A stretch of DNA of 64,000 nt from Candidatus Babelota bacterium (GTDB taxonomy: Bacteria; Babelota; Babeliae; Babelales; CAIQNR01), in NCBI GenBank assembly GCA_965658655.1, contig CBFHTA010000001.1:250696-314695 (forward strand), written 5' to 3'. The notes beneath the pieces were generated by a model. It saw only the letters and a list, made by a program, of their open reading frames with translations. It was not told where the DNA came from and did no database searches. The first letter of the stretch is position 1. Each line of letters begins with the position of its first letter. A program made the translations under genes and the position numbers. This document shows positions 50,307 through 52,523 of this stretch, in pieces.

Positions 50307-52442
50307 TTATCCTGCAGCTCCTAAACTTTTATTCTGTAATTTTAAAATTTCAGCATACTCTTTCAGCTTTACTGGAGCTGCAAGTGAAGGATTTTTCCTT
50401 AAAATTGCTTTGATTTGTTCTTTGGTTGCGCCATTGGTTAAGGTTGTTTTATCTGCTCCTGCAGTCATTGCATTTACAAGACCAGAGTTAGCAAGTTTGA
50501 TAATGCCGTTTACCGCTACAGCATCAAAAGCACACCAAGGGATTCGGGTTAAGGCAGTGGTGTTTTCTAAGTCAATGTCTCCTGTAACTTGCATATTATA
50601 AAAGGCTTTCGGTTCTATTTCTGTCAATGCTGCGTTAGAAGCTAAAGATAACTCATTGCCTACAATAGTGTCCTTGAATGTTTCGTTAGAAAGTTTTGTG
50701 ATACCCGTACTATCCATTCTTAAATTGTTAGTTATGTTAGCTTTTTGAAAAGCAGTAATAGGAACCGTAGTGAGTGCAGCATTATTGTCTACTCTTAAGT
50801 CATTGCTTACTAGTGTCTCTTTGAATGCACTTTCTTCTAGATTTGTTAATCCTGTGCTATCTAAGCGGATATCTCCTGTGATAGATATTCCCTTAAAGAA
50901 AGTATTTAAAATAGTACTGGGTATTGTCTCTAAAGAGCTGTTTCCTGTTAAACTTAAACTACCCGTAAGGTTTACTCCTTCAAATGCATTTTCGTTAAGG
51001 GTGGTTAACGCGGTGTTTCCTGTTACTTCTAAATCTCCAGTGACGGTAAGACCGTTAAACGCATTTTCGCCAATGCTCGTTAAAGAGGCATTATTATTTA
51101 TTTTTACATTTCCAGAGACCGTTGCTCCATTGAAAGCATTTTCAGATAATGAGGTAAGCCCTGTATTTTGTACTTCTAAGTCAGTATTAATGGTGGTAGT
51201 TTCAAAACCGTTGGTTGGTAGCGTGGCTAATGCAGAGTTATCGTCTAGACATAATGTTCCAAAAGTTGCGCCATTAAAAGCATTTGTAGCGATAGTTTCT
51301 AAAGCAGTGTTCCCATCAAGGCGTGTGGTGCCTGTGACTTCAATTCCATTAAAAGCATTTTCTGGAAGTGTTGTGAGGCCAGTATTACCATTAAGTTGTA
51401 AGTTTCCGCCTACTGTTAGTCCATTAAAGGTGTTTGCAGGAATTGTTGTAAGAGCAGTGTTGCCATCAATGCGTAAATTTCCTGTTATTGTTAATCCCGT
51501 AAAGGCTCCAGAAGCAATTGTTGTAAGAGAAGTATTGCTATCAATGCGTAATGTTCCCGAAACAGTAAGTCCATTCAAGCCGTTTTCTGGGAGTGTTGTT
51601 AAACTTGTATTCGCATCTAAACGTAAATCGGTAACCGTTAAATTATTAAATGCATCTGCTGTAATAGTTGTTAATCCAGTATTTCCATGGAGCTCTAATG
51701 TTTCTAAATGAGTAAAAGTGGCAAATATGTCTGCAGGAATGGTCGTTAAACTTGTATTTCCGCCAAGTTTAAGAGTGGTAACTGCTGTTTTATCAATGCC
51801 ATCAAGAGATCCATCTAATCCTGTTAACTCTTCAAGAGCATTTTGACCTTGATCGCTTATTGTAGAACCAGAAAGATCAAGCGTGGTTCCATTGTCAGTA
51901 AGCCACGGAGAAGCACTTAAATCGACAGCTGCAGCTAGAGTGGTTATGGTTTGGGTGTCTGGAACAACATTACTTGTACCTTGTAATGAAAATTTTGGAT
52001 ATTGGTAAGGGGTTCCTGTAAAATAGTTCCAAGTGCTTGAGTCACTTCCACTTGCTATTTTATCTTTTTTAACTGTCCATCCTTCGGCGCTCCCTGTGGC
52101 AGAAGTAGAAGCTGTTGTTGTGTAGTAATGATTTGCAATTGCTGCTGTTGGATAAATTTCGAACCAGTAGGTTCCTGCAGCTGGTATTTCTACTTCACCG
52201 CTGTATGTTATGACATTGCTTCCATCAATTGACACATAAGAAAGTGTCCCTAAGAGCGATCCGACTGTGTCGTCTGAGTCGCTATGAATTCTAATGGCTG
52301 TTGAGGAAGGGTATTTTTGTGCCCCAGAAACTTGGCTCTGTGCGGTTGTGATAGTTGCAGCGCTTCCTGCTGTAAATTGATGAGCGTAACGAACATTGCT
52401 TCGTACTATCCAAGAGGTGGTTTGTCCTGTTGTTTCATTCAT
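50307..52442 (-). CDS. BspA-like leucine-rich repeat protein (paralog B), longest ATG-initiated ORF, lacks a signal peptide as drawn
   Basis: Same N-terminal domain (VRYAHQFTAGSAATIT...IANHYYT), a longer LRR array and the same C-terminal segment as paralog A. See 52464..52523 for the detached leader. Confidence 0.75.
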   Translation of the reverse strand: MNETTGQTTSWIVRSNVRYAHQFTAGSAATITTAQSQVSGAQKYPSSTAIRIHSDSDDTVGSLLGTLSYVSIDGSNVITYSGEVEIPAAGTYWFEIYPTAAIANHYYTTTASTSATGSAEGWTVKKDKIASGSDSSTWNYFTGTPYQYPKFSLQGTSNVVPDTQTITTLAAAVDLSASPWLTDNGTTLDLSGSTISDQGQNALEELTGLDGSLDGIDKTAVTTLKLGGNTSLTTIPADIFATFTHLETLELHGNTGLTTITADAFNNLTVTDLRLDANTSLTTLPENGLNGLTVSGTLRIDSNTSLTTIASGAFTGLTITGNLRIDGNTALTTIPANTFNGLTVGGNLQLNGNTGLTTLPENAFNGIEVTGTTRLDGNTALETIATNAFNGATFGTLCLDDNSALATLPTNGFETTTINTDLEVQNTGLTSLSENAFNGATVSGNVKINNNASLTSIGENAFNGLTVTGDLEVTGNTALTTLNENAFEGVNLTGSLSLTGNSSLETIPSTILNTFFKGISITGDIRLDSTGLTNLEESAFKETLVSNDLRVDNNAALTTVPITAFQKANITNNLRMDSTGITKLSNETFKDTIVGNELSLASNAALTEIEPKAFYNMQVTGDIDLENTTALTRIPWCAFDAVAVNGIIKLANSGLVNAMTAGADKTTLTNGATKEQIKAILRKNPSLAAPVKLKEYAEILKLQNKSLGAAG

Positions 52443-52463
52443 GTTGGTAAAAAGTGTTTCACA

Positions 52464-52523
52464 CTAAAGTTGTTGAAACACAAAGAGCATGCTTAAAGAT
52501 AGTAAACTTTTCCAGGGCTTCAT
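52464..52523 (-). other. Detached signal-peptide leader (19 codons) ending in an in-frame TAG, upstream of paralog B
   Basis: A strong SD (aaggagaatct) precedes the ATG at 52523. The translation MKPWKSLLSLSMLFVFQQL-TAG-CETLFTN-ATG(52442) is in frame with the LRR ORF. The ATG at 52442 has no SD. Confidence 0.7.

What the first reader, a model, noticed from the sequence alone, without database searches (positions are those of the whole stretch)
52440..52523. In-frame TAG severs the signal peptide from LRR paralog B, while the strong SD sits on the severed leader
On the minus strand, the ATG at 52523 is preceded by aaggagaatct. It opens MKPWKSLLSLSMLFVFQQL, which is signal-peptide-like and comparable to MKINHYIRLLTFLFILPINLLG of paralog A. 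A TAG at 52466-52464 follows. Then CETLFTN and the ATG at 52442 continue in the same frame into the 711-aa LRR ORF. The ATG at 52442 has no SD-like sequence. There are four possible explanations:
1. A recent nonsense mutation (an incipient pseudogene).
2. A sequencing error.
3. Stop-codon read-through or suppression.
4. Production of a cytoplasmic, non-secreted isoform.
The TAG lies in the loop of an 8-bp hairpin (gtgtttca 52454-52461 / tgaaacac 52474-52481). This is noted only as an observation.
Basis: seen in the sequence. Interest (0 to 1): 0.55.

Follow-up and report, generated by a model that had tools for sequence, protein, structure and literature searches.

The report
Nonsense codon cuts off signal peptide
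One of two neighbouring genes for exported leucine-rich-repeat proteins has a single-base change (TGG to TAG) that cuts its export signal off from the rest of the protein, which is most likely an ordinary, very young gene inactivation; a related species has a similar, independent change in the same gene.

Summary
On the minus strand, a strong Shine-Dalgarno (SD) site (AAGGAG) and ATG 52523 open a 19-codon signal-peptide-like leader. TAG 52466-52464 ends it. The same frame continues through CETLFTN and ATG 52442, which has no SD, into an intact 711-codon BspA-type LRR ORF.

Orthologs downstream of prmC in related uncultured bacteria show what happened. The two nearest intact orthologs read ...QQLWCETLFTNMNE and ...QKLWCETLF, so the TAG is a single G-to-A change of a Trp codon. 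It sits at position -2 of the predicted signal-peptidase site.

TAG is a normal terminator in this window, and no other gene here is interrupted this way. The 8-bp hairpin is neither thermodynamically unusual nor conserved.

The rest of the ORF shows no relaxed constraint: no further lesions and a symmetric relative-rate test. The mutation is therefore very recent, or the gene is still used.

Best reading: a real, young nonsense allele that abolishes export. Any residual product would need reinitiation at ATG 52442 and would lack the signal peptide and the first beta-strand. A base-call error cannot be excluded without reads.

One oddity remains: another lineage (L026) has an independent TGG-to-TAG at codon 38 of its ortholog, and two lineages lack the gene.

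The parts
52584..53474 (-). prmC (release-factor glutamine methyltransferase), the conserved upstream neighbour used as the synteny anchor
   Evidence: Pfam PrmC_N plus MTS domains. Orthologs of 74-87% identity were found and their contigs fetched.
52548..52576 (-). Promoter-like element conserved among orthologs: TTGAAT (52576-52571), a 17-nt spacer ending in TGC, then TAATTT (52553-52548)
   Evidence: CTTGAAT/CTTGAG and TGCTAAT/TGCTATA are conserved in all six aligned intergenic regions. It falls below the threshold of the simple consensus scan, so promoter function is inferred only.
52529..52534 (-). Shine-Dalgarno AAGGAG, 5 nt upstream of ATG 52523
   Evidence: The equivalent AAGGAG precedes the start of every ortholog except the L033 variant.
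52467..52523 (-). Severed leader ORF of 19 sense codons, MKPWKSLLSLSMLFVFQQL. It is the n- and h-regions and most of the c-region of a Sec-type signal peptide
   Evidence: It aligns with the intact leaders of P0140, L031, L028, L032, P0141 and paralog A.
52464..52466 (-). In-frame TAG (codon 20), derived from TGG (Trp) by a G-to-A change at 52465. It sits at position -2 of the predicted signal-peptidase I cleavage site (L-W-C | E)
   Evidence: L031 has CTT TGG TGC GAA ACA here. P0140 has QQLWCETLF. Other orthologs have TTG or TTT. The cleavage site is inferred from the -3/-1 rule and the alignment; no signal-peptide predictor was available.
52443..52463 (-). CETLFTN: the last signal-peptide residue plus the conserved first beta-strand of the mature N-terminal domain. 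It lies between the TAG and the next start codon
   Evidence: The TLFT(T/N)MNE motif is conserved across the family. In the AlphaFold model (mean pLDDT 83.8; 88 over the first ten residues) residues 2-6 (ETLFT) form strand 1.
50307..52442 (-). Remaining ORF of paralog B: 711 codons from ATG 52442 (no SD), an N-terminal beta-sandwich domain plus a BspA-type LRR array, with no further lesion
   Evidence: Pfam LRR_5 84.5 bits and LRR_8 81.3 bits. It is 88% identical to intact P0140 without gaps over 721 residues. dN/dS against orthologs is 0.11-0.14.
52454..52481 (-). 8-bp inverted repeat with the TAG in its 12-nt loop, judged a chance feature
48430..50205 (-). Paralog A, an intact 591-aa tandem LRR gene with its own SD and signal peptide (61% identical to B)
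   Evidence: It is present in the protein collection as P0010.
47600..48427 (-). 275-aa protein with an N-terminal signal peptide and a C-terminal ...FAITF. It accompanies the LRR gene in L026 and L028, and a gene cut off by the contig end sits in the same position in L031. L032 instead has two shorter ORFs (163 and 118 aa) there
   Evidence: No Pfam match. The outer-membrane beta-barrel reading is inference from the terminal Phe only.

Best explanation
Paralog B is the window's copy of a gene that sits directly downstream of prmC in a group of related uncultured bacteria. These are probably Dependentiae/Babeliales-like, judging only from the few named distant hits. The gene encodes an exported protein made of a Sec-type signal peptide, a roughly 190-residue all-beta N-terminal domain and a BspA-type LRR array.

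In this genome a single G-to-A transition turned codon 20 (TGG, Trp) into TAG. Codon 20 is position -2 of the predicted signal-peptidase site.

Inferred consequences:
- Ribosomes recruited by the strong SD translate only a 19-residue orphan signal peptide and terminate.
- The 711-codon remainder has no ribosome-binding site of its own. It can be translated only if terminating ribosomes reinitiate at the AUG 21 nt downstream.
- Any such product would lack the signal peptide and the first beta-strand of the N-terminal domain, so it could not be exported through Sec.

The allele is therefore an export-null form of the gene and most likely a very young pseudogene. The intact tandem paralog A remains alongside it.

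Shown:
- the stop codon and its frame;
- the ancestral codon;
- the intactness and normal evolutionary rate of the rest of the ORF;
- normal use of TAG as a terminator.

Inferred:
- the cleavage site;
- loss of export;
- reinitiation;
- the recency of the mutation.
For: - **Sequence.** The stop, its frame and the SD are as described.
- **Ancestral codon.** The orthologs P0140 (88% identical, gap-free) and L031 carry Trp at the aligned codon, followed by the same Cys. L028 and L026 have TTG and L032 has TTT.
- **Leaders elsewhere.** All other family members have open leaders.
- **TAG is a terminator.** It ends 10 of 56 long ORFs in the window. It ends the adh_short gene at the same residue where L025, L026 and L028 use TAA.
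- **No wider pattern.** No other gene in the window shows an SD-plus-leader, stop, long-ORF arrangement. The suspicious neighbouring ORF pairs are separate genes.
- **The exact 711-aa product is not in the protein collection.** All seven other window proteins tested in that look-up are in the collection, and PrmC was later found there too. This fits the gene having been deposited as a pseudogene.
- **A changeable locus.** The locus holds 0, 1 or 2 LRR genes between prmC and mutL in relatives. This fits a dispensable, turnover-prone gene.
- **Recency.** There is no second lesion in 2.1 kb. dN/dS is 0.11-0.14 and terminal-branch dN is not raised. B-specific and P0140-specific amino-acid changes are 31 vs 30, 32 vs 27, 25 vs 28 and similar.
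- **Base accuracy.** Logan contigs of the same strain are 100% identical to the window over 7535 + 926 bp nearby.
Against: - No independent assembly or read set covers position 52465, so a base-call or consensus error is not excluded.
- The ORF downstream of the TAG cannot be told apart from a gene under selection. That is equally what continued function would predict.
- A second lineage (L026/L027) carries an independent early TGG-to-TAG in an otherwise intact ortholog. This is somewhat unexpected if one-hit pseudogenes are short-lived.
- The promoter-like element and the SD are still intact.
Confidence: 0.6

Rival explanations
1. Base-call, polishing or consensus artefact. The real genome, or the majority of the population, has TGG at codon 20 and the gene is intact.
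For: The rest of the ORF is flawless and evolves like the intact orthologs. A single base separates TAG from the TGG seen in the nearest orthologs. No independent contig covers the site: L023 stops inside paralog A and L024 stops upstream.
Against: Independent Logan assemblies agree with the window at all 8461 neighbouring bases compared. No other broken gene was seen in about 55 genes. The leader sequence of B is unique, so a collapse of paralogs A and B cannot produce it. The analogous TAG in L026 is identical in two assemblies, ENA and Logan, so such alleles do exist in this group.
Confidence: 0.12
2. The allele is functional through termination-reinitiation. The 19-codon leader acts as an upstream ORF, and ribosomes restart at AUG 52442, 21 nt downstream. 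This gives a cytoplasmic, non-exported LRR protein that is maintained by selection.
For: The stop-to-start distance is short, and Met28 is an ancestral, conserved residue. The ORF shows continued constraint and no second lesion. The SD and the promoter-like element are retained. In L026 a GTG lies 5 codons after its TAG.
Against: There is no SD before ATG 52442. The product would lose the conserved beta-strand 1 (ETLFT) of a confidently modelled domain. In L026 a restart would also remove strand 2 and part of the invariant RSNVRYAHQF motif. Five of seven lineages keep the signal peptide, so export is the selected state.
Confidence: 0.12
3. Stop-codon read-through or suppression. UAG is decoded at some frequency by a near-cognate or suppressor tRNA, so that a full-length exported protein is still made.
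For: Two independent TAGs occur in orthologs, both in place of Trp codons and both in otherwise intact ORFs. Position -2 of the cleavage site tolerates W, L, F, Q and Y across the family, so almost any inserted residue would do in the window's copy.
Against: TAG terminates 10 of 56 long ORFs and is positionally equivalent to TAA in orthologs. The window has only tRNA-Lys and tRNA-Glu. The stop is not conserved at either position in other lineages. No significant or conserved RNA structure surrounds it. TGG-to-TAG is simply one of the few transition routes to a stop; TGG accounts for 14 of 34 such routes in L031.
Confidence: 0.08
4. Genetic-code peculiarity: pyrrolysine, or TAG reassigned as a sense codon.
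For: None beyond the presence of an in-frame TAG.
Against: TAG is used as a terminator throughout the window. No tRNA-Pyl was found. Orthologs have ordinary sense codons at the site.
Confidence: 0.01

Closest known systems
Premature stop codons in Listeria monocytogenes inlA (internalin A), from my own knowledge, not tested here
   Same: This is a bacterial LRR host-interaction gene in which independent single-base nonsense mutations recur in different lineages. Each leaves an otherwise intact gene.
   Different: The inlA stops truncate the C-terminal anchor and release a shortened protein. Here the stop lies in (window) or just after (L026) the signal peptide, so nothing is exported. No phenotype is known for this gene.
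Young, strain-specific bacterial pseudogenes made by a single nonsense mutation (general knowledge)
   Same: There is one disabling substitution and intact expression signals. No relaxation of constraint is detectable yet, and a paralog is present.
   Different: Nothing essential differs. The only unusual point is a second, independent early TAG in an ortholog.
Reinitiation after early nonsense mutations and translational coupling in bacteria, e.g. restarts in lacI and T4 rIIB and 70S scanning (general knowledge)
   Same: A short upstream reading frame with a strong SD ends 21 nt before an in-frame AUG.
   Different: The restart codon has no SD. No expression data exist, and the restart product would lack a structural strand.
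BspA-type LRR proteins (Pfam PF13306 LRR_5), such as Tannerella BspA and Treponema LrrA
   Same: The LRR array matches LRR_5 and LRR_8 well above threshold. The protein has an N-terminal export signal.
   Different: The roughly 190-residue N-terminal all-beta domain (motif NVRYAHQF) has no Pfam family. It has only weak structural matches, some of them to carbohydrate-binding modules and viral capsid or baseplate proteins.
prfB programmed +1 frameshift site (CUU UGA C)
   Same: The local sequence CUU UAG U has the same slippery-Leu-plus-stop layout.
   Different: The downstream ORF is in the zero frame. The +1 frame closes after 8 codons (read). There is no internal SD at the right distance. 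The resemblance is superficial.

Membership tests
BspA-type leucine-rich-repeat protein (Pfam LRR_5 / LRR_8) | Profile match above the curated gathering score | tested here: met
   LRR_5 scores 84.5 bits (cut-off 27.7) and LRR_8 scores 81.3 bits (cut-off 27) for the 711-aa ORF.
Sec-type (signal peptidase I) signal peptide | A basic n-region, a hydrophobic h-region of about 10-15 residues, and small or neutral residues at -3 and -1 | tested here: met
   MK..K, then SLLSLSMLFVF, then QQL-(W)-C | E. The orthologs show the same layout, with L at -3 and C, S or G at -1. This was judged by eye and by alignment; no signal-peptide predictor was available.
Pseudogene by nonsense mutation | An in-frame stop where intact orthologs have a sense codon | tested here: met
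   TAG here against TGG in L031 and P0140, TTG in L028 and L026, and TTT in L032.
Pseudogene by nonsense mutation | Relaxed selection or further lesions downstream of the stop | tested here: not met
   No second lesion. dN/dS is 0.11-0.14. The relative-rate test against P0140 is symmetric. This fits only a very recent inactivation.
Pseudogene by nonsense mutation | The stop is real in the organism (read support) and no product is made | not testable with these tools
   No reads are available, and no independent contig covers 52465.
Programmed stop-codon read-through | The stop codon is conserved at the same position in orthologs | tested here: not met
   Only the window has a stop at codon 20. 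L026 has one at a different codon (38). Five lineages have none.
Programmed stop-codon read-through | A stimulatory RNA structure or context that is significant and conserved | tested here: not met
   The hairpin has z = -0.68 and is not conserved. No Rfam family matches at the site.
Suppressor tRNA or pyrrolysine decoding of UAG | A tRNA with a CUA anticodon (and pyl genes) in the genome | tested here: inconclusive
   None in the 64-kb window. The rest of the genome was not available.
Termination-reinitiation (translational coupling) | A stop and a restart codon close together on one mRNA | tested here: met
   21 nt lie between the TAG and ATG 52442, with no other start codon between them.
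Termination-reinitiation (translational coupling) | SD-like help for the restart, or a demonstrated product | tested here: not met
   No SD match upstream of ATG 52442. A product cannot be tested here.
Secretion-monitor upstream ORFs (SecM, MifM, VemP type) | An upstream ORF long enough to leave the ribosome tunnel and engage Sec, with an arrest motif that controls the downstream start | tested here: not met
   The leader ORF has only 19 codons, and it is a mutational remnant of the gene's own signal peptide.

The most novel reading that the evidence does not exclude
Early UAG codons in this prmC-linked LRR gene are a tolerated, recurrent state rather than dead ends. Independent TGG-to-TAG changes at codon 20 (window) and codon 38 (L026) leave ORFs that evolve no faster than intact orthologs. 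This could mean that low-level UAG read-through or termination-reinitiation keeps the protein in use. Export of a host-interaction protein would then be dialled down or redirected by a reversible point mutation, a slow mutational on/off switch.
Probability: 0.1. Interest if true: 0.55.

Novelty: new member of a known kind. Interest (0 to 1): 0.22.

Why it matters
If the stop is real, this is one more example of turnover in the exported LRR repertoire of a host-dependent bacterium. It matters mainly for annotation: the 711-aa ORF should not be annotated as an intact exported protein starting at Met28. The recurrence of an early TGG-to-TAG in a second lineage, together with complete loss of the gene in two others, marks the prmC-mutL interval as a hot spot of gain and loss of host-interaction genes. 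Only if the downstream ORF proved to be expressed would it say something about read-through or reinitiation in these organisms.

Tried and rejected
- **Exact-product look-ups.** The 711-aa ORF is not on record in either look-up. PrmC is not on record in the contig look-up but is in the protein collection as P0018, from NCBI only. The source contig itself is never returned.
- **Logan contigs of the same strain.** L023 (7.5 kb) ends inside paralog A and L024 (926 bp) ends upstream of prmC, so neither covers the TAG.
- **First homology search.** The search with B's N-terminus found only distant relatives (49-65% identity) and missed the true orthologs. These were reached only through prmC synteny and through a search with L031's product.
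- **Collection scans.** The genome and metagenome scans gave only distant family members at 51-64% identity.
- **P0004, which starts at MNE.** It looked like a second severed leader, but it is a gene-caller choice. Its upstream leader is open.
- **The hairpin as a recoding signal.** Rejected.
- **+1 frameshift at CTT TAG T.** Rejected, because the main ORF is in the zero frame and the +1 frame closes after 8 codons.
- **Secretion-monitor upstream ORF.** Rejected, because the leader has only 19 codons.
- **Lipoprotein lipobox around the Cys.** Rejected. Position -1 is Trp (or the stop), and other orthologs have Ser or Gly instead of Cys.
- **Relative-rate tests for L026.** They gave contradictory results depending on the outgroup. 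The likely causes are an unresolved topology or a mosaic LRR array, so I did not use them.
- **Cluster look-ups for strain-level variants of the orthologs.** The clusters found contain only the query protein.
- **Structure search for the N-terminal domain.** Only weak matches were found, all with query TM-score below 0.5.
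Full report
**1. Observation**

Read on the minus strand, the region runs as follows:
- The prmC stop is at 52586-52584, followed by a 60-nt spacer.
- The spacer contains AAAAAAGGAGAATCT and ends at ATG 52523.
- The ORF opens with MKPWKSLLSLSMLFVFQQL and is stopped by TAG at 52466-52464.
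- The same frame continues with CETLFTN and ATG 52442, then stays open for 711 codons to TAA at 50307.
- No ATG, GTG or TTG lies between the TAG and ATG 52442.

The leader's start has a 6-nt SD match (AAGGAG). ATG 52442 has none. In this window 30 of 54 mechanically called starts have an SD match of at least 4 nt, against 14.5% of random positions, so SD-led initiation is the norm here.

**2. The hairpin**

The 8-bp inverted repeat (52454-52461 / 52474-52481) exists and holds the TAG in its 12-nt loop. It is not special:
- The fold is no more stable than shuffled sequence: -9.4 against -7.8 +/- 2.3 kcal/mol, z = -0.68.
- The window holds 35 comparable perfect hairpins, against about 16 in shuffles.
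- The 5' arm lies in the fast-evolving signal-peptide codons and is absent from every ortholog.

I treat it as chance.

**3. What the gene is**

The 711-codon ORF matches the BspA-type LRR families, LRR_5 at 84.5 bits and LRR_8 at 81.3 bits. In front of the LRR array lies a domain of about 190 residues with no Pfam family, marked by an invariant R-x-N-V-R-Y-A-H-Q-F motif. AlphaFold2 models it as an all-beta domain with mean pLDDT 83.8. It has only weak structural neighbours in the PDB, some of them carbohydrate-binding modules and viral capsid or baseplate proteins, all with a query TM-score below 0.5.

Paralog A (48430-50205, 591 aa, 61% identical) follows in tandem and is intact, with its own SD and signal peptide. 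Next comes a 275-aa signal-peptide protein, then mutL.

The few named distant hits are from Candidatus Babeliales / Dependentiae. The phylum assignment is therefore a lead, not a result. [quoted passage not shown] Type II secretion normally depends on Sec or Tat export to the periplasm first (my own knowledge).

**4. Is TAG a sense codon here?**

No.
- TAG ends 10 of 56 long ORFs in the window.
- The adh_short gene at 43558-44433 ends in TAG at exactly the residue where its orthologs in L025, L026 and L028 end in TAA.
- The window carries only tRNA-Lys and tRNA-Glu.
- No other gene in the window shows an SD-plus-leader, stop, long-ORF arrangement. Neighbouring ORF pairs that looked suspicious are separate genes.

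**5. Orthologs**

The source contig (NCBI, 521 kb) is represented in the protein collection by paralog A, mutL, prmC and other proteins, but not by the 711-aa product. This fits the gene having been deposited as a pseudogene.

Using prmC as an anchor, I fetched the syntenic loci of relatives whose PrmC is 80-87% identical. A search with one intact ortholog added two more proteins. The results:

| Lineage | Length | State | N-terminus or note |
|---|---|---|---|
| P0140 | 742 aa | intact; 88% identical to B, gap-free over 721 residues | MNHSRCLLLLTVLFLFQQLWCETLFTNMNE... |
| L031 | 668 aa | intact | ...FFFYQKLWCETLFTNMNE, DNA CTT TGG TGC GAA ACA |
| L028 | 668 aa | intact | ...PVTLLSEALFTNMNE |
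| L032 / L034 | 742 aa | intact | ...FFPYVLFGETIFTNMNE |
| P0141 | 663 aa | intact | (not quoted here) |
| L026 / L027 | about 665 codons | its own in-frame TAG at codon 38, in place of the conserved Trp of ...TTSWIVRSNV; otherwise intact | (see note in the state column) |
| L025, L030 | none | gene absent | no LRR gene between prmC and mutL |

The window's TAG is therefore a single G-to-A transition of a Trp codon. The same Cys codon follows it as in its two nearest relatives.

By alignment and the -3/-1 rule, the codon is position -2 of the signal-peptidase site (L-W-C | E). That position varies across the family (W, L, F, Q, Y).

More distant family members all have an open leader, or carry the domain inside a much larger protein. 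P0004, whose called start is MNE, has an open signal peptide upstream and is just a start-site miscall.

**6. Age and constraint**

Apart from the TAG, paralog B is flawless.
- Pairwise dN/dS against orthologs is 0.11-0.14. This lies within the range seen between intact orthologs (0.12-0.16). B's terminal-branch dN is not raised.
- A Tajima-type relative-rate test against P0140 is symmetric with six different outgroups: 31 vs 30, 32 vs 27, 25 vs 28, 21 vs 35, 31 vs 26 and 21 vs 23.
- About 3.7% of random substitutions in this gene make a stop (220 of 669 x 9 possible changes). If I assume indels at roughly 0.15 per substitution, a neutral 2.2-kb ORF would be expected to take a second disabling hit within well under 1% neutral divergence.

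So either the TAG is of strain-level age or the ORF is still under selection. This is inference, and the data cannot separate the two.

**7. Real mutation or error?**

No reads were available and no independent contig covers 52465. Two Logan contigs of the same strain, from ERR15116653 and ERR15116855, stop short of it. They are identical to the window at all 8461 bases compared, and the window shows no other broken gene. B's leader sequence is unique, so a collapse of paralogs A and B cannot create the stop. The equivalent TAG in L026 appears identically in an ENA and a Logan assembly. I put an artefact or minority variant at about 0.12.

**8. Consequences (inferred)**

Ribosomes loading at the SD make a 19-residue peptide and terminate. 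The only route to the remaining ORF is reinitiation at AUG 52442, 21 nt downstream and without an SD.

That product would lack the signal peptide. It would also lack residues ETLFT, which form the first beta-strand of the modelled domain (pLDDT 88 over the first ten residues). It could not take the Sec route that the five intact lineages retain. In L026, a restart at the GTG five codons after its TAG would remove two strands and part of the invariant motif.

The reading I consider most likely is therefore an export-null allele on its way to becoming a pseudogene. It sits in a locus that clearly gains and loses these genes, with 0, 1 or 2 copies between prmC and mutL.

**9. What remains odd**

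Two of seven lineages carry an independent, early TGG-to-TAG in an otherwise intact gene. Part of this is mutational opportunity:
- Transition routes to a stop are few (31-34 per gene).
- 12-21% of them fall in the first 40 codons.
- About a third of them start from TGG.

Even so, catching two lineages in the short-lived one-hit state is mildly surprising. It keeps alive, at about 0.1, the idea that such alleles are tolerated through read-through or reinitiation.

**10. Verdict**

This is an ordinary kind of event, a fresh nonsense allele of a dispensable exported LRR gene, in an uncharacterised lineage. Interest is low to modest.

Noticed in passing
L026:8059-8061 (also L027:1302-1304): The ortholog in a related species (PrmC 85% identical) has its own in-frame TAG at codon 38, in place of the conserved Trp of ...TTSWIVRSNV. 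The remaining 622 codons are intact, and the gene caller started the gene at the GTG of NVRYAHQF. None of the 17 gene ends seen in this 14.9-kb locus uses TAG, but that is too few to test for reassignment.
   Followed up: partly
L033:7195-7245, compared with L032:7195-7245: Two near-identical strains differ in the leader of the ortholog. In L033 the SD AAGGAG reads AATGAG, which creates a new ATG. A T7 run is T6, which shifts that new start into frame. The result is a remodelled but open N-terminus (MRKNASTTWYFLMILFFPYVLFG). The two changes look compensatory.
   Followed up: partly
window 47600-53474, with L025, L026, L028, L030, L031 and L032: The prmC-mutL interval varies between relatives. 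It holds two LRR genes plus a 275-aa signal-peptide protein here. It holds one LRR gene plus a 273-283-aa protein in L026 and L028, and the same layout, with the second gene cut off by the contig end, in L031. L032 has one LRR gene followed by two shorter ORFs. L025 has only an 88-aa ORF, and L030 has nothing. The 275-aa protein ends in ...FAITF, which may indicate an outer-membrane beta-barrel partner.
   Followed up: partly
window 51864-52463 (-), with P0001-P0007 and L013, L014, L017, L018: The N-terminal domain of about 190 residues (motif NVRYAHQF) has no Pfam family and is modelled as an all-beta domain (pLDDT 83.8). It also occurs at the N-terminus of otherwise unrelated proteins from metagenomes. 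In some loci the open reading frame upstream of the domain runs for roughly 700 to 900 codons, so there it is an internal module of a much larger protein. It appears to be an undescribed domain.
   Followed up: partly
window 52464-52469 (-): CTT TAG T resembles the prfB +1 frameshift site (CUU UGA C), and it sits right after prmC, a release-factor modifier. The +1 frame closes after 8 codons, so I take the resemblance as coincidence.
   Followed up: yes
window 50770-51711 (+) and 48773-49381 (+): Long shadow ORFs of 313 and 202 aa lie antisense to the two LRR arrays. They are most likely a by-product of the repeat's codon composition and not genes.
   Followed up: no
P0028, L005 and L006 (record titles): Taxonomic labels on related MAG records are inconsistent. 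Examples are 'Alteromonas naphthalenivorans' for a PrmC 74% identical to the window's, and 'Bifidobacterium breve' and 'Proteobacteria bacterium' for carriers of the N-terminal domain. Some of these are probably mis-binned contigs.
   Followed up: no
window 22958-23731 (-): A 257-aa ORF has a weak ankyrin-repeat match (E = 2.8e-4, below the Pfam threshold). If real, it would be another eukaryote-like repeat protein, which would fit a host-associated lifestyle.
   Followed up: no
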